IMG/VR virus record: IMGVR_UViG_3300045988_100976
Reading direction: 5' to 3' (one strand)
DNA length: 52,142 bases
From: a virus
A program made the position numbers and the translations under genes. The notes beneath the pieces were generated by a model. It made no database searches. It saw only the letters and a program-made list of their open reading frames with translations, and was not told the origin of the DNA. Below are positions 1,730 to 48,137 of the stretch, piece after piece. Positions within the stretch are counted from its first letter, which is position 1. Every line of letters begins with the position of its first letter.

Positions 1730-1877
1730 TTCTTTTTACCTGTGCTATAATATAGCTACCTTTCTTTTTTGATTGGTGGCGGCGTGTGCTTGGTAGGCGT
1801 GCCGCCTTTTTTAGTCTGCCATCATCAGAGCCGGGAGACCATCCCACGGCTGACGCTCCAAGGTCGGAGCGTTTCGG

Positions 1878-1991
1878 CTATGCTTCTTTTACTATGAAAT
1901 CCTTTTCAGCTCTGCGCGCCTGCGCTGGTGTCATTGCTACAACTCCTATAATTGCCTTTGTTGCCTTGTCTGTGATTTTGTAATTTTTCAT
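1878..1991 (-). CDS. Hypothetical miniprotein (37 aa, MKNYKITDKATKAIIGVVAMTPAQARRAEKDFIVKEA)
   Basis: ATG at 1991-1989 is preceded by GGAAGGA. It is the first gene downstream of the leftward promoter and is below the track cutoff. Confidence 0.5.
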   Translation of the reverse strand: MKNYKITDKATKAIIGVVAMTPAQARRAEKDFIVKEA

Positions 1992-2498: not shown

Positions 2499-2777
2499 AT
2501 GACAAAAGGATATGTAAAAGATTTTTTCGGAAATGATACCGAAATGAGAAGCTGGGTTTTTGGTAACGGAATTGAAGTGTATGAAAAGGATTTTGACAAT
2601 AATTTACATTGCTTTGACGTTTACAACGGAGAAGAAAAGCTCGGAACGATTTACCCGGACAATATCGGCGATATGGAGAGCTGCATAGAATTGTTAAACG
2701 CTGGAGAAGACCCAATAAGCGGACACTGGGAAGATGGTTGCGGAAATTTATGTACACTGCAAGGATGGGGGGAATGA
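2499..2777 (+). CDS. Hypothetical acidic protein (92 aa)
   Basis: ATG 2499 lies after an AGGGTGG SD and directly downstream of the operator-controlled promoter. Confidence 0.7.
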   Translation: MTKGYVKDFFGNDTEMRSWVFGNGIEVYEKDFDNNLHCFDVYNGEEKLGTIYPDNIGDMESCIELLNAGEDPISGHWEDGCGNLCTLQGWGE

Positions 2778-3436
2778 TGATGATATGGGGTAAATTGCTT
2801 GAAACATACGAAAATTGTAATGATATAGTAAGGGTGGCGCATGTTGCGCTGCCTTTATCTGTTGGCGTGTTACTTGATCCGCTGGGAAAATTATTGCTTA
2901 TACAAAAATTTGAAAAAAAGGAATGGGCAGAATCGCCTTGTACTGTTAAATCCGAAACACGGACAAGCAACATATGCCCGCATATCTTAAACGACAAATA
3001 CACGTATATAGGCAGCAAAGATAAAGAAAAGCACGGTAAATATATGGATCAGCTAAGACAATACGCGAAAAATAGCAATCACTTATACCCATTTGCCGTA
3101 TATAAATATTTGTCTGAAAATGATATTGACAAGGATTTGATCGAAAATGACATACAGATAGGTGACGGTGATTATATTGGTTTTGCAGTCTATAAAACGG
3201 AATATGATCCGAAAGAGTGGACGGAATATTATGTAAACACTTTGCCTAAAAATGGTTTATGCTCTGTAACTATGCAAGAGGATTACATACCGGAAGCATA
3301 CCCGGCTAAAATTATGAGTGTAACAGACAAATCAAAAATATTTGCTAAAGGTTCCGACGTCGGATATATTGCATCCCAAAAAATTATACATACGATGCAG
3401 TATCTTAACTGGTACAAAGCAGCAAAAAATATATAA
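2774..3436 (+). CDS. Hypothetical protein (~220 aa; start is 2774, 2777 or 2780)
   Basis: Three consecutive ATGs follow a GGGGGG SD and overlap the upstream stop. No motif recognised. Confidence 0.7.
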   Translation: MMMIWGKLLETYENCNDIVRVAHVALPLSVGVLLDPLGKLLLIQKFEKKEWAESPCTVKSETRTSNICPHILNDKYTYIGSKDKEKHGKYMDQLRQYAKNSNHLYPFAVYKYLSENDIDKDLIENDIQIGDGDYIGFAVYKTEYDPKEWTEYYVNTLPKNGLCSVTMQEDYIPEAYPAKIMSVTDKSKIFAKGSDVGYIASQKIIHTMQYLNWYKAAKNI

Positions 3437-6045: not shown

Positions 6046-6212
6046 TGGAAATAGCGGGAAAACAGATAAATGATGAATGTACAAAATGTGCGGAACTGCT
6101 GCAATGTGAATTATTTAAGCAAGGACATGGCATAAGGCGGCCGAGATCAAATATCCGGCAGATGCTTGAATGTCAGATGAAGCATAGAGAAAAGGCAGGT
6201 GGTGCAGAATGA
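6045..6212 (+). CDS. Hypothetical miniprotein (55 aa)
   Basis: TAATG stop/start overlap with the preceding ORF. Confidence 0.45.
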   Translation: MEIAGKQINDECTKCAELLQCELFKQGHGIRRPRSNIRQMLECQMKHREKAGGAE

Positions 6213-6339
6213 AAGAGATTGCGAGAAGCCCTAAAAGGGCGGTCTGAAAGGAAAGGTTTTGTTTTATATCACAGAGTAACTAATAACACACATAATATAG
6301 CATTTTACCCCATAGGGCTTGAAATACAGCCCTATACAA

Positions 6340-6425
6340 CGAGACATGGTGTAAACGGAAAACATTGGCAGCCTTAACCCCCTCAAACCCTCTGTCAGAT
6401 GTCGGTTCGATTCCGGCTGTCTCGA
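6340..6425 (+). ncRNA. tRNA-like element (86 nt) with a 20-nt G-less, C-rich loop in place of the anticodon loop
   Basis: It has a perfect 7-bp acceptor (CGAGACA/TGTCTCG), a D-arm and a T-arm (GTCGG TTCGATT CCGGC). The anticodon-position stem GGCAG/CTGTC closes the loop CCTTAACCCCCTCAAACCCT. Confidence 0.55.
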
Positions 6426-6647
6426 TTTGTCTGAATTATTAGCCATTTTTCGGACACCCCTAAGACCCACTAGCAGAAAGCTGATTAAAGAGCCGTCACA
6501 AGGCTTGGTGGGTATCGGCGGAAATGACGCGCCGCCGGACATTGGCAGTGAAAATCAACCCGTGATTCATAGCACGACAGTTAAAGGCTGCACTCCTTTC
6601 ATAATTGTTTGGTTTGTGGGCGGTTAGTGCTTATTCGCTCACAGCAT

Positions 6648-6719
6648 AGGGCTATCGCCAAGCGGTAAGGCACAGCACTTTGACTGCTGCATTCGTAGGT
6701 TCGATTCCTACTAGCCCCA
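6648..6719 (+). tRNA. tRNA-Gln (anticodon TTG)
   Basis: Folded by hand into a cloverleaf: anticodon arm CAGCA-CTTTGAC-TGCTG, T-arm GTAGG TTCGATT CCTAC, 5-nt variable loop. Position 1:72 is an A-C mismatch. Confidence 0.75.
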
Positions 6720-6782
6720 TTTCTGCACGGCAGACTATCGTGCGCCGGAAGTATATGAGTGATTTATAAAGAACAATTTATT

Positions 6783-6983
6783 TGATGCGTGGCGGAATAG
6801 GTAAACGCTAATCAATGGTTAAGAAAAAGGTATGCGACAAGAATTGCTAGAACAAGTCCGGTAAATAGCTGTAAGCAATTATACCTATAAATCTGTTAGA
6901 AAATATAAATCCATTTATCCTTAATTGTAAGTGCGGACTAACTAACAGAATTTCATGTGTGGTGCAAATCCACACCGCATCAA
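6783..6983 (+). ncRNA. Split tRNA-like scaffold with a ~145-nt structured insert where the anticodon and variable arms would be
   Basis: The acceptor TGATGCG (6783-6789) pairs with CGCATCA (6976-6982). U8, a GG-containing D-arm (6792-6808) and the T-arm GTGTGG TGCAAAT CCACAC (6957-6975) are present. Internal helices include AGGTAT/ATACCT, AATTGC/GCAATT and CTGTTAG/CTAACAG. Confidence 0.45.
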
Positions 6984-7131
6984 TCGGTCGGGTAGCTCCC
7001 GAATAAGCAGGCGTTGTGGTAGTCCCTGCTGAAAAATCAAAACGCTTGTGTGGCTGACTTTAACTCGAATATGAAAAGAGTTGGAGCTGGTCGCACAAGA
7101 AACCGCACAACGATTGCGAGGTGTTAGCTGT

Positions 7132-7413
7132 ATGGTACAAAATTGTATAAACTGTGGTGCACCGATAGATACAGCGCATACAAAATGTCCGTATTGCGGC
7201 ACGCCATACGAGTATGATGGATTTAATGCCAAGTTTGAAAATAAAAACGCTTATGGAACATTACGAGTGGCAGACAAAGAGTATCGGGTATACTTAGGTG
7301 ATGTTGAATTTAACGGAATACCTTCGATGAATGACATATATAGAGACGAGAACGGCATAATACATCGAAATTTGCTGACAACAAAACGAAAATTTATGTT
7401 GATTGAGGTGTGA
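7132..7413 (+). CDS. Zinc-ribbon protein (93 aa)
   Basis: ATG 7132 follows a GAGGTG SD. Motif is CINCGAP...CPYCGTP. Confidence 0.65.
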   Translation: MVQNCINCGAPIDTAHTKCPYCGTPYEYDGFNAKFENKNAYGTLRVADKEYRVYLGDVEFNGIPSMNDIYRDENGIIHRNLLTTKRKFMLIEV

Positions 7414-7414
7414 T

Positions 7415-7633
7415 ATGTGTAAATTTTGCGAAAATATAGGGATTGGATTACCAGATTGGAATTTCTTACCCGAAGATGATGCGGAAATAGTTCCGGATGG
7501 GATGAAAATAGAAATCAGAAAAGTTATTGATAAAACAGCACTTGTATTTACGAATAGCGCAGATGAATACGGAGCAGGAGCAATCAATATTAGGTTCTGC
7601 CCTATGTGTGGCAGAAAGTTGGTGGAAGAATGA
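7415..7633 (+). CDS. Cys-rich miniprotein (72 aa)
   Basis: GAGGTG SD. Has CKFC at the N-terminus and CPMCG at the C-terminus. Confidence 0.6.
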   Translation: MCKFCENIGIGLPDWNFLPEDDAEIVPDGMKIEIRKVIDKTALVFTNSADEYGAGAINIRFCPMCGRKLVEE

Positions 7634-7809
7634 AAATGTTTAAAGACTGTTCAATTTGCAAATATTGTGATGAAGATCTTATTTTTGATGAAGAAACAGG
7701 AGAAGAATATCCGTTTTATATTTGTCAAAAAGGAAACGATACATCACTTGACTATGAGTGCAAGGATTTTGAAAGGTTTACGAATAATGAGTATGACAGA
7801 CGTAATTGA
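7630..7809 (+). CDS. Cys-rich miniprotein (59 aa)
   Basis: GGTGGAAG SD, start overlaps the upstream stop, motif CSICKYC. Confidence 0.55.
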   Translation: MKMFKDCSICKYCDEDLIFDEETGEEYPFYICQKGNDTSLDYECKDFERFTNNEYDRRN

Positions 7810-7966
7810 ATCAATAGAGCGAGAAGCATTCAGAGAAGCACAAGCGCATGAAATCACAGGGAGAAATGGAGAACCTATAGATTGTTCCACTTTAGGAGAT
7901 AAACCTGTTATTGCGGCAGATAATGAAGAAGACAGGCAAGCGTTGAGAGATTGCTTTAAGAGGTAA
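7787..7966 (+). CDS. Hypothetical miniprotein (59 aa)
   Basis: ATG 7787 in the frame of track ORF 7667..7966. The SD is weak (GAAAGG). Confidence 0.45.
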   Translation: MSMTDVIESIEREAFREAQAHEITGRNGEPIDCSTLGDKPVIAADNEEDRQALRDCFKR

Positions 7967-7970
7967 AAAT

Positions 7971-8450
7971 ATGGAGTACCAAGACGCAATTAAGAAAATG
8001 GAAAAAGGAATAACAAAACTTCAAAAAAAATTAGACGAAGCCAAGTCAGGAATAAAAACATCACAGAATGAGTTTCTTGCTTGCGATGATACGATGAAAA
8101 TAGATATTCTTGGAACGGAATACAGGATTGAAACCCACAAAGTATCAGAGGACAGTTTCATGGAGAAAAAAGGTCTTGCAGGATATTGTGGAGAAGAAGA
8201 CAAGTTGATAGTAGTTGCCGATATGTCGGAAGAAAAATATTTTGTAGGCATGGACGAAAAAGCGCAGGAAACATATCGCAAAAAGACCTTAAGACATGAA
8301 ATTATACACGCTTTTCTGAATGAGAGCGGACTGTCTGATAGTTCAAACCGGTTTGATGGTGCATGGGCAAAGAACGAGGAAATGGTTGATTGGTTTTCAA
8401 TTCAAGCTCCGAAAATCTTTTCTGCGTTCAAGAAAATGAATATTTTGTAA
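7971..8450 (+). CDS. HExxH zinc-metallopeptidase-like protein (159 aa)
   Basis: Contains TLRHEIIHAFLNESG, a HExxH motif with a downstream E. Confidence 0.55.
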   Translation: MEYQDAIKKMEKGITKLQKKLDEAKSGIKTSQNEFLACDDTMKIDILGTEYRIETHKVSEDSFMEKKGLAGYCGEEDKLIVVADMSEEKYFVGMDEKAQETYRKKTLRHEIIHAFLNESGLSDSSNRFDGAWAKNEEMVDWFSIQAPKIFSAFKKMNIL

Positions 8451-38723: not shown

Positions 38724-38965
38724 GTATGACATTATTAGAATTACAGAACATATTGGGTAAGCATATTGAAGCTATTGATCGCGAAGATATGTCGCCGGAG
38801 CAAAGAAAAGAAGAATACCAAAAGAGTGAATCGGTTGCTAGACTTGCGAAGCAGATGATTAACAATGCTGATGTTGTTCTTAGAACAGACAAGCTGATTG
38901 CTGAAGGAAAGCTATTAAAGGGAAATACAATATCCAAGATTGTCGGAAGTTCGGATAATGAGTAG
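38720..38965 (+). CDS. Hypothetical protein (81 aa)
   Basis: Start overlaps the upstream stop. Confidence 0.6.
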   Translation: MSMTLLELQNILGKHIEAIDREDMSPEQRKEEYQKSESVARLAKQMINNADVVLRTDKLIAEGKLLKGNTISKIVGSSDNE

Positions 38966-39686
38966 ATTTTACACAGAGGAGCACAGACAATGGATTTTTT
39001 GTAATCAAAAAAAATTTACAGAATATGGGGAATTGACTGCTGCTTTCAACAAACAATTCAACTGCGATAAATCGATACATGCTTTACAACAATTCGCAAC
39101 AAAAAAGTGCGGAGTTCACTTGAACACTGCAAAAACAAACACTCATTATACGCAAGAACAAGAGGATTATCTTGCTAAAAACTTTTGTAAATGTAGTGGC
39201 TATGCTGAATTAACCGCCGCCTTTAACGAGAAATTTTGCGATTGCAGAAGTGTGTCACAGATAAGCGATAAATGCTCGAAATGGTTGAAATTAACAGGCA
39301 TGAATAATGTTACAAGGTTTGCAAAGGGGAATATTAAAGAGCAATGCCAAATCGGTACATTGCGAAAAGGTCGAAACGGAACAACCTACATAAAGGTTGT
39401 TGACAGCAGAAATTCACATGCAAGTGGATATAGGGAACCTTGGTGGCTACCTATTCAGAAGAAAATATATCAAGATGCCTATGGAGAAGTGCCACAAGGC
39501 AAAATGGTTATATTTCTTAATGGCAATACAGAGGACTTGTCGATTGACAATTTATATGCGATTGACCGAAGGATATCAGCTATATTGGCTAAGAATGGTT
39601 GGTATTTTCATGACGCAGAACGTACCTTAACGGCAATTAAATGGTGTGAATTGTATTACAAACTGAAAGAAGGAAGAGTGAAATGA
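38958..39686 (+). CDS. HNH (HNH_3-type) homing-endonuclease-like protein with two N-terminal Myb/SANT-like repeats
   Basis: MVIFLNGNTEDLSIDNLYAIDRR matches the HNH_3 core. There is a duplicated YT(E/Q)E....GELTAAFN(K/E)(Q/K)F segment. Confidence 0.7.
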   Translation: MSRFYTEEHRQWIFCNQKKFTEYGELTAAFNKQFNCDKSIHALQQFATKKCGVHLNTAKTNTHYTQEQEDYLAKNFCKCSGYAELTAAFNEKFCDCRSVSQISDKCSKWLKLTGMNNVTRFAKGNIKEQCQIGTLRKGRNGTTYIKVVDSRNSHASGYREPWWLPIQKKIYQDAYGEVPQGKMVIFLNGNTEDLSIDNLYAIDRRISAILAKNGWYFHDAERTLTAIKWCELYYKLKEGRVK

Positions 39687-40584: not shown

Positions 40585-41173
40585 ACCAAATTATAGGCAG
40601 ATATACGCAAAGAAAGCGGTTAGAGAAAATCGTATTAAGTCTATTTGCCCTAATATTCCAAACACAAGCGGAATATACGCATTTCACAGAGTGGATGAAG
40701 CCGGTATAAAAAGGTCGTACGTGGGGCAAGCAGTAAACCTTTTGGAAAGATGCGCTTCACACCTTGGAGAGTATGACCATATAGCATTAAGCCTAAAAAA
40801 ACACGGGTTTTACAGTGAGGACAATCCTTGTGGTTGGAAGTTGGATTTTAAGATTTGCCCTAAATCTGAATTAGATGAAAAGGAAGTTGCTACGATCAAG
40901 CAATTTGCTGACAAGGGATTTCAGATGTACAACGTCACAGCCGGTAGCCAAGGGCAAGGGAAGTTGGTAACAGGTCAATACAAGCAACCTAAGACCTATA
41001 CGCAGGGCATACAACAAGGATATAAAAAAGCTTCAAAAGAAGTTGCGCATTTATTTGAATTGCACCTTGATTATAAGACTAAATCTGAACCCCCTAACAA
41101 AAATCAAGAAAAAGCATTGAATAAATTTTTGGAGTTTTTAAATTATTGCAAAGGAGATTCTGGAAATGAATGA
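40568..41173 (+). CDS. GIY-YIG nuclease-domain protein
   Basis: SGIYAFHR...SYVGQAVNLLERCASH matches GIY-(10-11 aa)-YVG with a downstream R and H. Confidence 0.75.
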   Translation: MVLVSKPNYRQIYAKKAVRENRIKSICPNIPNTSGIYAFHRVDEAGIKRSYVGQAVNLLERCASHLGEYDHIALSLKKHGFYSEDNPCGWKLDFKICPKSELDEKEVATIKQFADKGFQMYNVTAGSQGQGKLVTGQYKQPKTYTQGIQQGYKKASKEVAHLFELHLDYKTKSEPPNKNQEKALNKFLEFLNYCKGDSGNE

Positions 41174-41585
41174 GATATGGAAAAGCGTTGTCGGATATGA
41201 AAATCTTTATGAGGTATCAAGTTTCGGTCGGGTCAGGAGCGTTGATAGGACAACTATTGGGAAAACAGCTTTTAGTGATGATTCTTTGTATCATTTTAAA
41301 GGAAAAATATTGAAACAAGGAAATAGGAAAACTTCTGGAATGCCTTATAAGCAGGTTGTTCTTTATAAAAACAAGGAACACAAGACTGTTGCCGTACACA
41401 GATTGGTTGCAGAGGCATTTATACCCAACCCTGATAATTTGCCTCAAGTAAATCATAAGGACGAAAATCCAAGCAATAACAATGTTAGCAACCTTGAATG
41501 GTGCACATGTAAATACAATGTGAATTACGGAAGGGCGAATATGGTAAGGGCGGTTGCTATTATCTTTGCGTTGCAAGAGGCGTGA
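41166..41585 (+). CDS. NUMOD4 plus HNH homing endonuclease
   Basis: EIWKSVVGYENLYEVSSFGRVRS is NUMOD4-like, and VAVHRLVAEAFIPNPDNLPQVNHKDENPSNNNVSNLEW is HNH_3-like. Confidence 0.85.
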   Translation: MNEIWKSVVGYENLYEVSSFGRVRSVDRTTIGKTAFSDDSLYHFKGKILKQGNRKTSGMPYKQVVLYKNKEHKTVAVHRLVAEAFIPNPDNLPQVNHKDENPSNNNVSNLEWCTCKYNVNYGRANMVRAVAIIFALQEA

Positions 41586-42557: not shown

Positions 42558-44472
42558 ATGGATTTTGAAAATTATTCTTGTGATAATCAAATGTCTATAT
42601 TTGATTACATAAGAGAACCGATCAGAATAACAAAGCCCATTCGATTGATAGAGTTATTTGCCGGCTACGGAAGTCAAGCAATGGCACTAAAAAGAATAGG
42701 TGCAAAATTTGAGCATTACAGGGTTGTGGAATTTGATAAGTATGCCATAGCAAGCTATAACGCAGTGCATGGCACAGATTTTCCTACAATGGATATAACT
42801 AAGGTCCATGCAGAAGATTTGAATATTTGCGACACAGAAACCTTTACTTACTTACTTACTTACTCTTTTCCGTGTACGGACTTGTCTGTTGCCGGGAAGC
42901 AAGCCGGTATGTCTAAGGGTAGCGGTACACGATCAGGACTTTTGTGGGAAGTTGAAAGAATACTAACTGAAATCAGAGATGGTAGCGGAGAGTTGCCGCA
43001 GATATTATTCATGGAAAATGTACCACAAGTACACGGCAAGAAAAATATTGATGATTTTAAAAAGTGGTTGGAATTTTTGGAAAGTTTAGGCTACACGAAC
43101 TATTGGCAAGATTTGAATTCTAAAAATTACGGAGTTGCACAGAATAGAAACAGATGTTTTATGTTTTCGTTCTTAGGGAATTATTCATATAATTTTCCGC
43201 AGCCTATACCACTCAAAAAGAAACTCAAAGATTACCTGAAGGATAATGTAGATGAAAAGTATTACATCAACAATGAAAAGGCTGACAAACTGATAAAGCA
43301 GCTTATTGACAATGGTACATTACCAAATACAATCCCTAAGAGCAGAGCAGAGCAGACTTGCGTTGACGGAACAATTAATAAACCACAACGAAGAGAGGTT
43401 GCAAACTGTATCAAGGCAAGATGTGATGCCGGAATTTCAAACTTGCGGTCGGACGGAAACCTTGTTGTTAAAAGGAATGGTTGATAAAACGATTGAACCA
43501 ACGGCATCTAAAATTGATGTTTCGACAACAATTATGGCAAGAGACTATAAGGGATTGAATAATTACGGAACGAATGGAGTAATTGAATGGAAGTAATAGG
43601 AAGCATATATACAGGAGTTTCAGATAGATTTCAGAAAGGCATTATTAGTGGCGGTATATCACGGTGTGTAAAGGCTGAAAAAAATGATTTAGGAGTAGTT
43701 ATGGCAGATGTAAATGTTTTAGGTTCTCTTGAAGCAAAATTTGAGAGTACAAACAGAATTTATGATGTGGGGGGGGTGTAGTCCAACATTGAGTACAATG
43801 CAAGGTGGAAATCAAGAGCCGAAAATTCTTGAAGCAAAGCAGTTAGGATTTATGGATAATGGCACAGGCAAGCACCAATCAAACACAGTATATGATGAAA
43901 ATGCACTTTGCCCCAACATTACAACAGTCGAGGGTGGCGGTACGCAGCAAATTAAAGTATGTGAAAGTCAGATAGTTGCTATGCGTGGAAGAAATCCAGA
44001 TAATCCGTCAGATAGAACTGTTGGAAGTCCGACAGAGCAACGGTTAGAAGCGAATACACAAGGCGCAAGTAATTGTTTGACAAGTGTGCAGAAAGATAAC
44101 ATTGTTATGGAAAGCCAGGTATTAACACCCAAACGCACGGAATATGGCAAACAGATAAGAAAAGCGTATGAAAGCGGTCAGATACAGGAGAGCAGACACA
44201 ATATGACGGAATTAGAGCCTAGGCAAGACAATGTATCCAATACGCTGACAACAGTGCAAAAAGATAATTTATTGCTTGAAAAACCTCAATATCGCATCAG
44301 AAAGCTGACACCGAGAGAGTGTGGACGGCTTATGGGTGTATCTGATGAAGATATTGACAAAATGGCAGCAGTCAACAGTAACACGCAGTTGTATAAGCAA
44401 TTTGGCAATAGCATCGTTGTAGATGTTATGTGTGCTATGTTTAGGAATTTGAACATTAAAAACAGAGATTGA
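42558..44472 (+). pseudogene. Multi-TRD DNA (cytosine-5) methyltransferase split over four ORFs by three frame changes
   Basis: Motifs I (ELFAGYGS), IV (SFPCTDLS), VI (ENVPQV) and VIII (QNRNRCF) are in frame 0. Motifs IX and X (RKLTPRECGRLMGV, GNSIVVDV) are in frame 1. The frame switches near A4 at 43470-43473, near 43587, and at G8 at 43769-43776. Confidence 0.8.
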
Positions 44473-46534: not shown

Positions 46535-46933
46535 ATGAGGTTATCGGAACTGACTAAGCCAGAGATTGATTCGATCGTCGGAAATGCTAATTTTACGGAA
46601 GAAGAATATCAAGTGTTCCAGTATTTGTGTAAGGGCACAACACTTGACGAAATGGTTTTTAAATTAAAGTTATCGAAAGCTACCATTTCAAGAATCGTAT
46701 TTAAGGTCAAAATGAAAATAGAAAGGATTGATAAAATGAAGCAGAATGTACCTGTATGGGAAAAAATCACAATGACAGTAGAAGAAGCTGCAGAATATAG
46801 CAGCATCGGTATAAACAAAATCAGAGAACTTTCAAGTGATCCAAGATGTAATTTTGTTATCTACATAGGCAAAAAGCGGTTAATAAAGCGAAAAGAGTTT
46901 GAAAAATTTATTGCTGATAATGTGGAGTTGTAG
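46535..46933 (+). CDS. DNA-binding protein with an excisionase-type (HTH_17) C-terminal domain, putative Xis or regulator
   Basis: C-terminal MTVEEAAEYSSIGINKIRELSSDP...IGKKRLIKRKEFEKFI is excisionase-family-like. The N-terminal half is sigma-r4/LuxR-like. The gene sits directly upstream of int. Confidence 0.65.
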   Translation: MRLSELTKPEIDSIVGNANFTEEEYQVFQYLCKGTTLDEMVFKLKLSKATISRIVFKVKMKIERIDKMKQNVPVWEKITMTVEEAAEYSSIGINKIRELSSDPRCNFVIYIGKKRLIKRKEFEKFIADNVEL

Positions 46934-46940
46934 ACTTATA

Positions 46941-46981
46941 AAGCCTTATGTGATATTATATGTATTTGCATAAGGCTTTTT
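46941..46981 (+). terminator. Long-loop hairpin terminator, whose 3' arm is also the left copy of a 20-bp inverted repeat
   Basis: AAGCCTTATG (46941-46950) pairs with CATAAGGCTT (46969-46978), followed by TTT. Confidence 0.55.
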
Positions 46982-47006
46982 CCGTATAGGGAAAGGAGCG
47001 TAAAAG

Positions 47007-48137
47007 ATGGGAAAAGACCTAAGAGGTAAGGAAATAGGGCAAGGTTTGTCCCAGAGGAAAGATGGGTACTATGTCGCTAGATATACTGACAGATACGGAA
47101 AGCGCATACAAAAACTGTTCTTGAAAATGAGAGAAGCCCAAAAATGGCTTTCAGAAAACAAGTATGAGGATCAGCATTCAAATATAGACTTTCCATCTGA
47201 CTTGATTGTTGAATCGTGGTTCCAATACTGGATTGCAATAAAAGAGAAAACGGTAAGACCGAATACCGTCAGAAATTACAGAGAGCGTTATATTAGAAAC
47301 ATAAAGCCGATAATAGGGAATAAATTATTAAGAGATGTAAACAGTATTCATTGTCAGCAAATATTTAACAAAATGGATGATGAAGGATACAGGAAATCGA
47401 CAATATATCAGACAAGAATCGCATTGTACAATATGCTGCAATATGCGTTTGACAACGATGTAATAAGAAAAAATCCGTGCACAAGAGCTGTTATATCTGA
47501 TATAGGAAAAGAATCCGTTAAGAAAGAAGCGCTAACAATAGAAGCGCAGAAAAAATTTTTAAAATATGCTTCCGGCATGTCTTATGAGTATCAATATAGA
47601 TTTATATTACAAACCGGCTTGAGAACTGGGGAGCTTACTGGTTTAAAGTGGGAAGATATAGACTTTAAAAGCAGAACGCTTACGGTTAGCAGAAGTTTGG
47701 AATACAGGCATTCAACAGGCGAATGGAGAGAGGGTCAGCCGAAGAGTAAGTCCGGGTACAGGACTATACCGCTGACAGACGAAGCGATTTATATCTTGAA
47801 TAAGCAAAAAGAGAAAAATGCGCATCTGAAATTTGTCGAAATGCAATGGAAAGACAGAATATTTTTGTGCAAAACCGGAGCACCTGTTAAGAACAGCACA
47901 TATGACACGGCGTTATTTAAAATCTGCGATAAAGCAAAAATTCATAGATTCTCAATGCACGTATTGCGTCATACTTTTGCTACGAGATGCATAGAAGCCG
48001 GAATGATGCCGAAAACTCTTCAAACGATTTTAGGACATTCAAATATCGGAATAACCATGAATCTGTATGTGCACACAACAGACGATCAGAAAAAAATAGA
48101 AATTGAAAAAGTAGCAAAAGCACTAAAAGTTGTGTAA
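47007..48137 (+). CDS. int: Tyrosine recombinase / phage integrase
   Basis: 376 aa. N-terminal SAM-like core-binding domain. Catalytic region has ...LRTGELTGLKWEDID..., HVLRHTFATRCIEAG and LGHSNIGITMNLYVH (R, HxxR, H and Y). Confidence 0.95.
   Translation: MGKDLRGKEIGQGLSQRKDGYYVARYTDRYGKRIQKLFLKMREAQKWLSENKYEDQHSNIDFPSDLIVESWFQYWIAIKEKTVRPNTVRNYRERYIRNIKPIIGNKLLRDVNSIHCQQIFNKMDDEGYRKSTIYQTRIALYNMLQYAFDNDVIRKNPCTRAVISDIGKESVKKEALTIEAQKKFLKYASGMSYEYQYRFILQTGLRTGELTGLKWEDIDFKSRTLTVSRSLEYRHSTGEWREGQPKSKSGYRTIPLTDEAIYILNKQKEKNAHLKFVEMQWKDRIFLCKTGAPVKNSTYDTALFKICDKAKIHRFSMHVLRHTFATRCIEAGMMPKTLQTILGHSNIGITMNLYVHTTDDQKKIEIEKVAKALKVV

What the first reader, a model, noticed from the sequence alone, without database searches (positions are those of the whole stretch)
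6340..6425. A tRNA-shaped RNA whose anticodon loop is replaced by a 20-nt G-less, C-rich single strand
Seen: the acceptor stem is a perfect 7 bp, and U8, a D-arm, a canonical T-arm (TTCGATT loop) and a discriminator A are present. The 5-bp stem at the anticodon position (GGCAG/CTGTC) closes the 20-nt loop CCTTAACCCCCTCAAACCCT (6372-6391). This loop contains no G and cannot fold on itself. At 86 nt the element has the size of a class II tRNA, but no 7-nt anticodon loop can be drawn. Inference: it could be a decoy or sponge for an anticodon nuclease or a tRNA-modifying enzyme. It could instead be a scaffold that presents a C-rich strand complementary to purine-rich (GAGGGGG-type, SD-like) sequences, or a degenerate tRNA.
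Basis: partly seen in the sequence, partly recalled or inferred. Interest (0 to 1): 0.65.

Follow-up and report, generated by a model that had tools for sequence, protein, structure and literature searches.

The report
Non-decoding tRNA-shaped RNA in gut phage
A temperate phage of human-gut Lachnospiraceae carries a conserved gene that folds like a tRNA in every respect except that the 7-base anticodon loop is a 20-base, G-free, C-rich single strand, so it most likely works as a tRNA-framed carrier that displays that strand rather than as a decoder of codons.

Summary
Window 6340-6425 (+) is a complete cloverleaf (ARAGORN; Rfam tRNA 38.5 bits). Its 5-bp anticodon-position stem closes a 20-nt G-less loop at 6372-6391.

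It is not an ochre suppressor, an intron-containing tRNA or an attP fragment. It does not look like a decaying pseudogene:
- About 20 human-gut contigs carry it.
- It is the least variable stretch of its neighbourhood.
- Every stem substitution keeps the pairing.

Related Lachnospiraceae phages carry at least two further clean families of the same design, with 16-21-nt pyrimidine-rich loops. One 13-nt loop core is identical on two scaffolds whose stems are only about half identical.

The same tRNA island also holds a 201-nt tRNA-framed RNA (6783-6983). It is shared with Enterococcus phages and exists with two alternative inserts.

The Shine-Dalgarno sponge idea fails a direct test: the loop pairs with this phage's start regions worse than 96.5% of shuffled loops.

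Best reading: a selected, non-decoding tRNA scaffold that is processed like a tRNA and presents its loop to an unknown partner. A host defence factor that targets tRNAs or RNA is my leading guess. The function remains inferred.

The parts
6340..6425 (+). The tRNA-shaped RNA gene (86 nt), whole element
   Evidence: ARAGORN; Rfam tRNA 38.5 bits; own covariance model scores 117 bits on itself, and 116-119 bits only in close relatives.
6340..6346 (+). Acceptor stem, 5' strand (CGAGACA; C1-G72)
   Evidence: Pairs 7/7 with 6418-6424; invariant in 8 distinct variants.
6349..6365 (+). D-arm (GTGT / AAACGGAAA / ACAT) with G18 G19
   Evidence: Pair 13:23 switches U-A to C-G in 3 of 8 variants, a compensatory change.
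6367..6371 (+). Anticodon-position stem, 5' strand (GGCAG)
   Evidence: Pairs with 6392-6396; the G.U pair becomes G-C in metagenome variant L118.
6372..6391 (+). 20-nt G-less, C-rich single-stranded loop (CCTTAACCCCCTCAAACCCT): the presumed effector surface
   Evidence: Unpaired in MFE and centroid folds. Unique composition on the + strand. Pairwise diversity 0.020 against 0.060 and 0.135 in the flanks. Only three variants seen: T36A, C41A and +1 C.
6392..6396 (+). Anticodon-position stem, 3' strand (CTGTC)
6401..6417 (+). T-arm (GTCGG / TTCGATT / CCGGC)
   Evidence: Canonical T-loop; pair 63:77 alternates U.G and C-G.
6418..6425 (+). Acceptor stem 3' strand plus discriminator A. No encoded CCA; followed by TTT.
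   Evidence: Same 3' context as the neighbouring tRNA-Gln, consistent with RNase Z and CCA-adding maturation (inference).
6312..6335 (+). 8-bp hairpin (ATAGGGCT-TGAAATAC-AGCCCTAT) ending 4 nt before position +1 of the element
   Evidence: Equivalent hairpins precede nearly every tRNA or tRNA-like unit in related arrays.
6268..6296 (+). Possible sigma-70-type promoter (ATCACA-17-CATAAT), 44 nt upstream
   Evidence: This is a consensus match only, and the number of such matches in the region is not above the shuffle expectation.
6647..6720 (+). Ordinary tRNA-Gln(UUG), next unit of the same tRNA island; preceded by hairpin 6616-6642
6783..6983 (+). Second tRNA-framed RNA (201 nt): 7-bp acceptor TGATGCG/CGCATCA, class-II-like D-arm, about 140-nt structured insert, 6-bp T-stem GTGTGG/CCACAC
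   Evidence: The acceptor, T-stem and an internal helix are fully compensated in Enterococcus phage EFDG1. No Rfam match.

Best explanation
The element is a selectively maintained, non-decoding tRNA mimic: a natural 'tRNA scaffold'.

Shown:
- It has a complete tRNA body: acceptor, D and T arms, and the elbow nucleotides G18 G19 and T-loop TTCGATT.
- It sits in the phage's tRNA island with the same flanks as genuine tRNA units: a hairpin just upstream, no encoded CCA, and a T-run downstream.
- The anticodon arm is a 5-bp stem closing a 20-nt strand that cannot pair with itself.
- Body and loop are both conserved across about 20 gut contigs.
- Sister elements of the same design exist in related phages.

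Inferred:
- It is transcribed with the array, cut out by RNase P and RNase Z, given CCA, and stabilised by its tRNA fold.
- It cannot read codons, because no 7-nt loop with U33 and R37 can form. It therefore stays out of translation.
- It acts through the displayed C-rich strand together with its tRNA body, by binding a trans-acting partner.

My best guess for the partner is a host factor that recognises tRNAs or single-stranded RNA. Examples are an anticodon-loop-directed or other tRNA-targeting defence nuclease or toxin, for which the element would be a harmless bait or competitive inhibitor.

Approximate probabilities: functional non-decoding tRNA-framed RNA, about 0.7; acts through the loop as a specific recognition surface, about 0.5; the partner is a host defence or toxin factor (decoy), about 0.25.
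For: - tRNA body confirmed by ARAGORN and Rfam.
- Pairwise diversity is 0.026 for the element and 0.020 for the loop, against 0.060 in the upstream intergenic DNA and 0.135 in the downstream spacer, in 10 relatives.
- All substitutions at paired positions keep pairing: 100% of cells are paired in both the window family and the L087 family, with compensatory double changes in the D and T stems and G.U to G-C in the anticodon-position stem.
- The design recurs independently. The L069/70/71/87/109 family has the loop TTTTTCATCCTTTCTG. The Lachnospiraceae prophage element L091x has the loop TTTTACACACCCCACGTTTTT. Looser relatives are L083x and L059x.
- The 13-mer TTTTCATCCTTTC is identical on two scaffolds whose acceptor, D and T stems are 18/32 identical and whose anticodon stems are 2/10 identical. 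P is about 6e-4 at that background identity.
- In the same island, a 201-nt RNA uses a tRNA frame, and the same frame occurs with a different 155-nt-form insert in other phages.
- Phage tRNAs are documented counter-measures to tRNA-cleaving defences (PMC10264068, PMC11464382, PMC11555353). A non-translating pseudo-tRNA with a cellular role is known in Bacillus cereus (PMC3399842). Replacing the anticodon arm of a tRNA is an established way to make stable recombinant RNA in bacteria (PMC3753655).
Against: - There are no expression, processing or binding data.
- Divergence within the window family is low (98% mean column identity), so conservation of the loop there is weak evidence on its own.
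- No partner was identified. No protein gene co-occurs with the elements, and the window encodes no tRNA-dependent enzyme, RNA ligase or nuclease.
- Loops differ completely between families. This could mean different partners, or little sequence constraint in some of them.
- The clade also contains arm-less (63-65 nt) and otherwise odd tRNA-like genes. These fit a model in which only the tRNA body matters.
- The decoy role is an analogy with known phage tRNA biology, not a result.
Confidence: 0.45

Rival explanations
1. Cis-acting processing punctuation only. The tRNA body is kept solely as an RNase P / RNase Z cleavage module that cuts the polycistronic transcript. The upstream RNA is left ending in a protective hairpin. 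The anticodon arm is dispensable ballast.
For: - A GC-rich hairpin ends 1-5 nt before +1 of almost every unit in these arrays.
- Anticodon arms vary greatly in length between lineages, and some units lack the arm altogether (63-65 nt).
- The island lies between the early genes and the packaging genes.
Against: - Ballast should evolve faster than the stems. Instead, the loop is as conserved as the rest of the element.
- A 13-nt loop core is identical on scaffolds with 56% stem identity.
- The anticodon-position stem is maintained and even improved from G.U to G-C.
Confidence: 0.15
2. A tRNA gene on its way to decay. An insertion in the anticodon loop inactivated a phage tRNA (Leu-UAA-like or Val-like), and the copy has not yet degenerated.
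For: - The scaffold is about 70% identical to the clade's own C1-G72 tRNAs.
- Some expanded loops begin with a canonical-looking heptamer, for example L091x UUUACAC.
- The element occurs in a narrow lineage only.
- The arrays are mosaics with frequent gain and loss.
Against: - The element is less variable than all neighbouring non-coding DNA.
- Five of five stem substitutions preserve pairing, including one compensatory pair.
- No variant among about 20 contigs has a broken stem.
- The same architecture is maintained in independent families with covariation.
- No canonical-loop ancestor was found with the scaffold-anchored scan of 241 million metagenome records.
Confidence: 0.12
3. One reading: a tRNA-scaffolded antisense RNA or sponge. 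Its C-rich loop pairs with purine-rich, Shine-Dalgarno-like sequences, in the manner of C-rich seed sRNAs of Firmicutes.
For: - The loop is single-stranded, G-less and C-rich.
- The host is a Firmicute and the phage uses strong GGAGG-type ribosome-binding sites.
- The complement of the sister-family motif occurs in ribosome-binding-site contexts on other phage contigs.
Against: - Direct test on 40 start regions of this phage. The 16S anti-SD control has mean dG -9.9 and z = -3.9 against its shuffles. The window loop has mean dG -6.4 and z = +1.7, worse than 96.5% of shuffles. L091x has z = +3.2 and L087x z = +0.2.
- There is no complement with 3 or fewer mismatches anywhere in the window, and only chance 8-mers.
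- The best + strand duplex is -20.9 kcal/mol, against -21.8 +/- 1.6 for shuffled loops. That site varies without compensation and belongs to its own hairpin.
- A specific G-rich host RNA target is not excluded.
Confidence: 0.1
4. ARAGORN's reading: an ochre-suppressor tRNA (anticodon UUA) carrying a 13-nt intron that is removed to give a working tRNA.
For: - ARAGORN output.
- Position 37 would be A.
- Short inserts at position 37/38 are genuine introns in eukaryote-type tRNA-Tyr genes found on giant-virus contigs.
Against: - TAA is the most used stop codon (16 of 43 genes), all three stops are used, and the long structural genes are intact in the standard code.
- Position 33 would be C rather than U.
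- Variant L009 changes the putative anticodon from tta to taa.
- The insert has no G, so it cannot form a bulge-helix-bulge. It is far too short for a group I intron, and Rfam finds none.
- The host is bacterial. From general knowledge, no bacterial tRNA-splicing endonuclease is known.
Confidence: 0.03
5. Phage attachment site: a copy of the host tRNA segment used for integration by the tyrosine integrase.
For: The phage is temperate: integrase at 47007-48137 and an excisionase at 46535-46933.
Against: - Both halves of the cloverleaf are present, not only a 3' part.
- The element is about 11 kb from the integrase even across the genome ends.
- The 21-nt T-arm/acceptor sequence has no exact match in one genome per species of 185,579 bacterial and archaeal species.
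Confidence: 0.01

Closest known systems
Phage-encoded tRNAs that counter tRNA-cleaving host defences (anticodon-loop variants; T5 tRNA-Lys against PARIS; tRNA-Tyr against retron PtuAB). PMC10264068, PMC11464382, PMC11555353
   Same: The gene sits in a phage tRNA array and has a full tRNA body. The part that deviates from the norm is the anticodon loop, which is the part such defences attack.
   Different: The known cases are working tRNAs with 7-nt loops and point changes, and they replace cleaved host tRNAs. This element has a 20-nt loop and cannot decode, so it could only act as bait, inhibitor or something else.
tRNAOther of Bacillus cereus, a pseudo-tRNA that does not serve translation but affects gene expression and antibiotic resistance (PMC3399842)
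   Same: A tRNA-shaped RNA in a Firmicute context with a non-translational role.
   Different: tRNAOther is chromosomal and, from memory, has a roughly normal cloverleaf. No expanded display loop has been described for it. There is no sequence relationship.
Synthetic 'tRNA scaffold' for recombinant RNA, in which the anticodon arm is replaced by a cargo RNA (PMC3753655)
   Same: Identical architecture: acceptor, D and T arms are kept so that the cell processes and protects the RNA, and the cargo is placed at the anticodon arm. The 155-nt and 201-nt versions of the neighbouring element show the 'same frame, different cargo' principle in nature.
   Different: It is an engineering device, not a natural family. 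Here the cargo is only a 20-nt unstructured strand.
tRNAs with enlarged anticodon loops: +1 frameshift suppressors such as SufB2, and yeast mitochondrial tRNA-Thr1 (PMC7609411, PMC8324841)
   Same: Extra nucleotides in the anticodon loop of an otherwise normal tRNA.
   Different: Those loops have 8-9 nt and still decode. None approaches 16-21 nt.
Stable small RNAs of unknown function in the phage T4 tRNA gene cluster (species 1 and 2, rnaC/rnaD). Recalled from memory; no open-access source was found
   Same: Non-tRNA stable RNAs co-transcribed and co-processed with phage tRNAs, with partly tRNA-like ends and no known function.
   Different: They are longer (about 120-140 nt), not a clean cloverleaf, and unrelated in sequence. 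The resemblance was not tested here.
C-rich base-pairing sRNAs of Firmicutes (RsaE/RoxS type). Recalled from memory
   Same: Unpaired C-rich motifs in a small stable RNA of a Firmicute system.
   Different: Those sRNAs target G-rich ribosome-binding sites. This loop pairs with ribosome-binding sites worse than shuffled controls. They have no tRNA frame, and there is no Rfam match.

Membership tests
Canonical tRNA (Rfam RF00005) | Cloverleaf with 7-bp acceptor stem, D-arm with G18 G19, 5-bp T-stem with T-loop, discriminator base | tested here: met
   all present. Rfam scores 38.5 bits against a gathering score of 29.
Canonical tRNA (Rfam RF00005) | 7-nt anticodon loop with U33 and a purine at position 37, presenting a 3-nt anticodon | tested here: not met
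   The loop is 20 nt. Rfam aligns it only with a 17-nt insertion. ARAGORN needs a 13-nt 'intron' and C33.
Canonical tRNA (Rfam RF00005) | Aminoacylation and use on the ribosome | not testable with these tools
   Needs charging assays and ribosome association experiments.
Suppressor tRNA of a recoded phage | In-frame stop codons of the cognate type in essential genes; that stop not used for termination | tested here: not met
   Stop usage is TAA 16, TGA 15, TAG 12 of 43 genes. Terminase, portal and tape-measure genes are intact in the standard code.
Suppressor tRNA of a recoded phage | Conserved anticodon | tested here: not met
   Variant L009/L013 has CCTAAAC in place of CCTTAAC.
Intron-containing tRNA (archaeal/eukaryal bulge-helix-bulge type) | Two 3-nt bulges separated by a 4-bp helix formed between exon and intron | tested here: not met
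   The insert has no G and only A, C and U. No 4-bp helix with the loop can be drawn, and the fold leaves all 20 nt open.
Intron-containing tRNA (bacterial group I intron type) | Group I intron core (about 200 nt or more) in the anticodon loop | tested here: not met
   The insert is 13 nt. There is no Intron_gpI match at E <= 1.
tmRNA | tRNA-like domain plus tag reading frame | tested here: not met
   ARAGORN finds no tmRNA in the window, and Rfam finds none.
Y RNA-like (YrlA) tRNA mimics | Match to the YrlA model; tRNA-like module joined to a Ro-binding helix | tested here: not met
   No YrlA match at E <= 1 in 6150-8100. The ends of this RNA form the acceptor stem, as in a tRNA.
C-rich SD-targeting sRNA or anti-SD mimic | Loop complementarity to ribosome-binding sites above composition-matched expectation | tested here: not met
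   z = +1.7 for the window loop against z = -3.9 for the 16S anti-SD control. Host mRNAs were not testable.
Expanded-loop tRNA-like RNAs of Lachnospiraceae phages (class proposed here) | Full tRNA body (7-bp acceptor, D-arm, T-arm, class-I variable region) plus a stem closing a 16-21-nt pyrimidine-rich loop, located in a phage tRNA array | tested here: met
   12 clean members in 3 families, including this one, against 0-4 artefacts in the control. Array context.
Expanded-loop tRNA-like RNAs of Lachnospiraceae phages (class proposed here) | Pair-preserving evolution of the stems and conservation of the loop | tested here: met
   Statistical power is modest because divergence is low.
Decoy or inhibitor of a tRNA-targeting defence | Binding to, or protection from, a defined nuclease or toxin | not testable with these tools
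   No candidate partner is encoded nearby. Needs genetics and biochemistry.

The most novel reading that the evidence does not exclude
Temperate phages of gut Firmicutes use the tRNA fold as a general cargo slot. The acceptor, D and T frame guarantees processing and stability. The anticodon arm is exchanged for different payloads, and these are selected for their own sequence. Examples are 16-21-nt single strands such as this one, a 12-nt loop on an extended stem, and structured inserts of about 95 and about 140 nt in the 155-nt and 201-nt RNAs. On this reading the window's element is a member of a previously undescribed class of phage effector RNAs, and its C-rich strand specifically neutralises or baits a host RNA-targeting immunity factor.
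Probability: 0.25. Interest if true: 0.85.

Novelty: new variant of a known kind. Interest (0 to 1): 0.62.

Why it matters
Phage tRNA genes have recently been reinterpreted as weapons against host defences that cut tRNAs. If this reading is right, phages also make tRNA look-alikes that are deliberately unable to translate. Standard annotation mislabels them as 'tRNA-Stop', 'tRNA-Lys' or 'tRNA-Val' with an intron, or misses them altogether.

This would add a new type of small viral RNA to look for in gut viromes. It would give a natural precedent for the engineered tRNA scaffold. It would also provide loop-swapped natural variants that make the question 'what does the loop bind?' directly testable.

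In practice, it warns that suppressor-tRNA calls used to infer stop-codon recoding in phages can be false.

Tried and rejected
- Stop-codon recoding or suppressor role: rejected.
- A long complement of the loop in the window: none with 3 or fewer mismatches, and only chance 8-mers.
- A duplex-energy scan of the whole window. The best + strand site (6609-6630, -20.9 kcal/mol) is no better than shuffled loops achieve (-21.8 +/- 1.6). It lies in its own hairpin and varies (GGG to GAG) without any compensating loop change. Rejected.
- SD-sponge or anti-SD mimic: rejected for this phage's start regions.
- Complement of the sister motif (GAAAGGATGAAAA) in the held phage DNA: only ordinary ribosome-binding-site near-matches.
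- Searches for more distant homologs of the window type. I tried the exact 30-mer, a stem-anchored pattern, a T-arm/acceptor-anchored pattern and a loop-anchored pattern in IMG/VR, and a scaffold-anchored pattern in metagenomes. All return one narrow human-gut lineage.
- Other collections: nothing in GenBank phages or in GTDB genomes.
- Positional orthology in relatives with about 80% terminase identity: the island is a mosaic and the position is not conserved.
- Co-occurring protein partner: none. The Cas8c-like ORF is present in only part of the lineage.
- Generic IMG/VR scan for D-arm to T-arm spacings of 35-60 nt. It is dominated by eukaryote-type intron-containing tRNA-Tyr on giant-virus contigs, so it does not estimate prevalence in phages.
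- An 8-nt complementarity of the loop to the conserved 16S segment GGGUUAAG, recalled from memory. About one such match to rRNA is expected by chance, so I dropped it.
- Resemblance of the TTTTCATCCTTTC motif to the 16S 3' tail (UCA..UCCUUUCU). It is suggestive, but that loop shows no above-chance affinity for start regions, so I do not rely on it.
- Literature searches for a described class: none found.
Full report
**1. What is there**

Window 6340-6425 on the + strand reads as a complete cloverleaf. Its parts are:
- a 7-bp Watson-Crick acceptor stem, CGAGACA/TGTCTCG;
- U8;
- a 4-bp D-stem with the loop AAACGGAAA, which contains G18 G19;
- a 5-bp stem GGCAG/CTGTC at the anticodon position;
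- a 4-nt variable region;
- a 5-bp T-stem with the loop TTCGATT;
- discriminator A.

The loop closed by the anticodon-position stem is CCTTAACCCCCTCAAACCCT (6372-6391). It is 20 nt long, with 11 C and no G.

ARAGORN reports exactly these coordinates, but as 'tRNA-Stop (tta)'. That call requires treating 13 nt as an intron. Rfam's tRNA model matches at 38.5 bits (gathering score 29), with a 17-nt insertion in the anticodon loop. Thermodynamic folding leaves the 20 nt unpaired.

On the + strand, where C is 16.7%, this is the only 20-mer in the 52-kb window with no G and at least 11 C.

**2. Genomic setting**

The window is most of the genome of a temperate siphovirus-like phage. It encodes:
- large terminase, portal, major head protein and tape measure;
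- RecT, an SbcC-like protein, an antirepressor and DNA methylases;
- a tyrosine integrase, an excisionase and an HTH repressor.

Genes use strong GGAGG-type ribosome-binding sites. Prophage relatives lie in Lachnospiraceae and other Clostridia genomes. All contigs that carry the element come from human-gut data.

The element opens a gene-poor island at about 6213-7970, between a MazG-like gene and the packaging genes. The order is:
- hairpin (6312-6335), then the element;
- a 220-nt spacer;
- hairpin (6616-6642), then tRNA-Gln(UUG) (6647-6720);
- a 201-nt tRNA-framed RNA (6783-6983);
- further conserved non-coding sequence.

**3. Readings that can be excluded**

*Ochre suppressor with an intron.*
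- TAA is the commonest stop codon (16 of 43 genes), and all three stops are used.
- The long genes are intact in the standard code.
- Position 33 would be C.
- One natural variant changes the putative anticodon.
- The G-less insert cannot form a bulge-helix-bulge, and it is far too short for a group I intron.

*Attachment site.* Both halves of the cloverleaf are present. The integrase is distant. No genome among 185,579 species representatives contains the 21-nt T-arm/acceptor sequence.

*Minus-strand coding.* The mechanical ORF 6264-6542 on the minus strand is hit by a 1-nt indel among the relatives. It is not a gene.

**4. Evidence of selection**

The exact element occurs in 10 IMG/VR contigs and 10 ENA/JGI gut metagenome contigs. 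Together they give 9 distinct sequences.

Across 10 relatives, pairwise diversity is:

| Region | Diversity |
|---|---|
| Element | 0.026 |
| Loop | 0.020 |
| Upstream intergenic DNA | 0.060 |
| Downstream spacer | 0.135 |
| Two upstream ORFs | 0.044-0.078 |

Five substitutions fall at paired positions, and all keep the pair:
- U-A to C-G in the D-stem, a compensatory change seen in three variants;
- U.G to C-G in the T-stem;
- G.U to G-C in the anticodon-position stem.

The loop shows only T36A, C41A and one extra C. The extra C is on a contig with 2.6x coverage.

Divergence is low, so each of these results is modest. Together they argue against a decaying pseudogene.

**5. The element is one of a class**

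More distant relatives (terminase 75-89% identical) carry ordinary tRNA arrays: Gln, Tyr, Arg, Ser, Ser, Trp, Met, Ile, Glu. They also carry further tRNA-shaped genes with an oversized loop at the anticodon position. ARAGORN misses several of these, or calls them 'Lys' or 'Val' with an intron.

A strict descriptor was used: 7/7 acceptor pairs, a 5-bp T-stem with a T-loop, a D-stem, a 5-bp anticodon-position stem and a 3-5-nt variable region. It finds 33 distinct canonical tRNAs and 12 clean expanded-loop elements in three families. On reversed sequence it finds 0 canonical tRNAs and 4 long-loop artefacts. The three families are:

| Family | Loop |
|---|---|
| Window type | CCTTAACCCCCTCAAACCCT |
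| L069/70/71/87/109 type | TTTTTCATCCTTTCTG |
| L091x (Lachnospiraceae prophage) | TTTTACACACCCCACGTTTTT |

Looser members are L083x and L059x. L083x has a 7-bp stem and a 17-nt loop. L059x has an extended stem with U.U mismatches and a 12-nt loop. Most loops are pyrimidine-rich and G-poor.

In the L087 family, six variants keep 100% pairing, with two compensatory pairs, while the loop is unchanged in five of the six.

L087x and L083x share the 13-mer TTTTCATCCTTTC. Yet their acceptor, D and T stems are only 18/32 identical, and their anticodon-position stems 2/10 identical. At that background identity, 13 of 13 matches has P of about 6e-4. This is the strongest single indication that, in this class, the loop sequence itself is under selection.

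The scaffolds are about 70% identical to the clade's own C1-G72 tRNAs of the Ile-UAU and CAU types. They therefore appear to be diverged paralogs of phage tRNAs.

**6. A second tRNA-framed RNA in the same island**

I followed a 71% BLAST match to unannotated DNA of Enterococcus Schiekvirus phages. This showed that window 6783-6983 is a 201-nt RNA with:
- a 7-bp acceptor stem, TGATGCG/CGCATCA;
- U8 and a class-II-like D-arm;
- a structured insert of about 140 nt;
- a 6-bp T-stem, GTGTGG/CCACAC.

In phage EFDG1 the homolog lies inside the tRNA array, right after a tmRNA gene that Rfam detects but the GenBank record does not annotate. Its helices differ from the window's by full compensation: the acceptor (GTCACTG/CAGTGAC), the T-stem (GTAAGG/CCTTAC) and an internal helix (CCATTAG/CTAATGG, against CTGTTAG/CTAACAG in the window).

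Seventy-three IMG/VR contigs contain its 5' end. The same frame occurs with two different inserts, giving a 155-nt form and a 201-205-nt form. Rfam recognises neither form.

This is outside the finding's coordinates. It does show that these phage arrays really use a tRNA frame to carry non-anticodon cargo.

**7. What the loop does not do**

The complement of the loop does not occur in the window with 3 or fewer mismatches.

The best + strand duplex is at 6609-6630, at -20.9 kcal/mol. Shuffled loops achieve -21.8 +/- 1.6 somewhere in the window. That site is part of its own hairpin and varies without compensation.

For the Shine-Dalgarno sponge idea, I computed duplex energies with 40 translation start regions of this phage:

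| Strand tested | z against its own shuffles |
|---|---|
| 16S anti-SD tail (control) | -3.9 |
| Window loop | +1.7 (worse than 96.5% of shuffles) |
| L091x loop | +3.2 |
| L087x loop | +0.2 |

The C-rich loops therefore tend, if anything, to avoid the anti-SD-like arrangement of their bases.

No protein gene co-occurs with the elements. The window encodes no tRNA-dependent enzyme, RNA ligase or ribonuclease.

**8. Most likely mechanism**

*Shown.* The element has an intact tRNA body and the flanks of a genuine array unit. These flanks are an upstream hairpin ending 4 nt before +1, no encoded CCA and a downstream T-run, as for the neighbouring tRNA-Gln. It has a non-decoding loop. Body and loop are conserved. 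The design recurs.

*Inferred.* The RNA is excised by RNase P and RNase Z and receives CCA. It is stable because it folds as a tRNA. It is excluded from decoding. It acts by offering its loop, held on a tRNA body, to a partner.

*Why I favour a host defence factor as the partner.* My guess is a host tRNA- or RNA-directed defence factor, with the element acting as bait or competitive inhibitor. Four points lead me there:
- Phage tRNA arrays are now known to counter such defences (PMC10264068, PMC11464382, PMC11555353).
- The part remodelled here is the part those defences attack.
- Loops differ sharply between sister lineages, as expected in an arms race.
- Several expanded loops begin with a vestigial heptamer carrying U33, U34 and a purine at position 37: L091x UUUACAC, and UUUUGAA in another gut-phage family.

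This last step is analogy, not evidence.

*Main rivals.*
- Pure processing punctuation. The upstream hairpins and the arm-less units favour it. Loop conservation argues against it.
- Recent pseudogene.
- Antisense action on a specific host RNA, which I could not test.

**9. Comparison with what is known**

Open-access literature describes enlarged anticodon loops of only 8-9 nt, all in decoding tRNAs. I found no description of phage tRNA-like genes with 16-21-nt loops.

The closest natural analogues are the non-translating pseudo-tRNA tRNAOther of Bacillus cereus (PMC3399842) and, from memory, the stable RNAs of the T4 tRNA cluster. The closest in architecture is the engineered tRNA scaffold (PMC3753655).

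The element passes the structural tests for 'tRNA-like'. It fails the defining anticodon-loop test for a tRNA. It also fails the tests for suppressor, intron-containing tRNA, tmRNA, YrlA and SD-targeting sRNA.

I therefore file it as a new variant of a known kind, a non-decoding tRNA-like RNA. It is the simplest member of what may be a wider class of tRNA-framed phage RNAs.

**10. Verdict**

The feature is real, conserved and unusual, and current annotation tools mislabel it. Its function is unknown. The scaffold-and-display reading is reasonably supported. The SD-sponge reading is disfavoured. The decoy reading is plausible but untested.

Interest is 0.62. The most novel reading still open is a general cargo-slot use of the tRNA fold by gut phages for anti-defence RNAs. 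I give it a probability of about 0.25.

Noticed in passing
window 6783-6983 (+); homolog L243 (Enterococcus phage EFDG1 KP339049.1) about 1495-1699: A 201-nt tRNA-framed structured RNA: 7-bp acceptor, class-II-like D-arm, about 140-nt insert, 6-bp T-stem with loop TGCAAAT. It is conserved between Lachnospiraceae phages and Enterococcus Herelleviridae phages, with fully compensated helices. 73 IMG/VR contigs carry it, and the same frame exists with a different insert (155-nt form). There is no Rfam match.
   Followed up: partly
L243 1145-1495 (EFDG1 record about 46701-47051): Rfam finds a tmRNA gene (140.6 bits) inside the tRNA array of Enterococcus phage EFDG1. The GenBank record has no annotation there.
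   Followed up: no
window 1810-1879 (-): Type II hammerhead ribozyme, 64.6 bits (gathering score 37), on the strand opposite to most genes.
   Followed up: no
window 2738-3436 (+): A 232-aa ORF matches the N-terminal 206 positions of Pfam Cas_Csd1 (Cas8c), E = 5e-11, above the cut-off. There is no NCBIfam match. It is present in only some contigs of the lineage. It may be a truncated Cas8c-like protein carried by a phage.
   Followed up: partly
window 6312-6335; relatives L003, L005, L006, L008, L010: The 8-nt loop of the hairpin just upstream of the element is reverse-complemented in several relatives (TGAAATAC against GTATTTCA). This is a small inversion between the hairpin arms.
   Followed up: no
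window 6312-6335 and 6616-6642; L087, L070, L091, L083, L059, L043, L016 upstream of their units: Almost every tRNA or tRNA-like unit in these arrays is preceded by a stable GC-rich hairpin that ends 1-5 nt before position +1. This suggests a repeated 'hairpin + tRNA' cassette design or a processing signal.
   Followed up: partly
window 6466-6512: A 47-nt module (CCACTAGCAGAAAGCTGATTAAAGAGCCGTCACAAGGCTTGGTGGGTA) recurs at 85-96% identity just downstream of tRNA-Gln in L075, L079, L089 and L090, although the surrounding sequence is not conserved.
   Followed up: no
L075 8748-8810, L092 7721-7783, L090 5920-5984, L091 7277-7358, L091 6557-6631, L055 8503-8575: Other non-canonical tRNA-like genes in related arrays. 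They include 63-65-nt units with the anticodon arm missing or reduced to a short stem with a 5-nt loop, units with 8-9-nt anticodon loops, and ARAGORN calls with 2- or 4-base 'anticodons'.
   Followed up: no
L006 (IMGVR_UViG_3300045988_161138), at the position corresponding to window about 6520: In this relative the spacer between the element and tRNA-Gln is interrupted by inserted coding-looking sequence that starts with a ribosome-binding site and ATG. This shows how mosaic the island is.
   Followed up: no
loci L123-L242: Many IMG/VR contigs, often giant-virus MAGs, carry eukaryote-type tRNA-Tyr(GUA) genes with 12-35-nt introns at position 37/38. A separate gut-phage family (L169/L183/L200) has a Gln-like tRNA with a 16-nt loop, TTTTTTGAAGGTTTTA.
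   Followed up: partly
window 42558-43484 and 43729-44472 (+): Two adjacent ORFs match the N-terminal and C-terminal parts of a C5 cytosine DNA methylase. This may be a split or interrupted gene. HNH endonuclease ORFs lie nearby, at 38940-39686 and 41166-41585.
   Followed up: no
L271 845-912: An int-alpA RNA (Rfam RF02996, 50.5 bits) lies near the tRNA array of a related gut phage contig.
   Followed up: no
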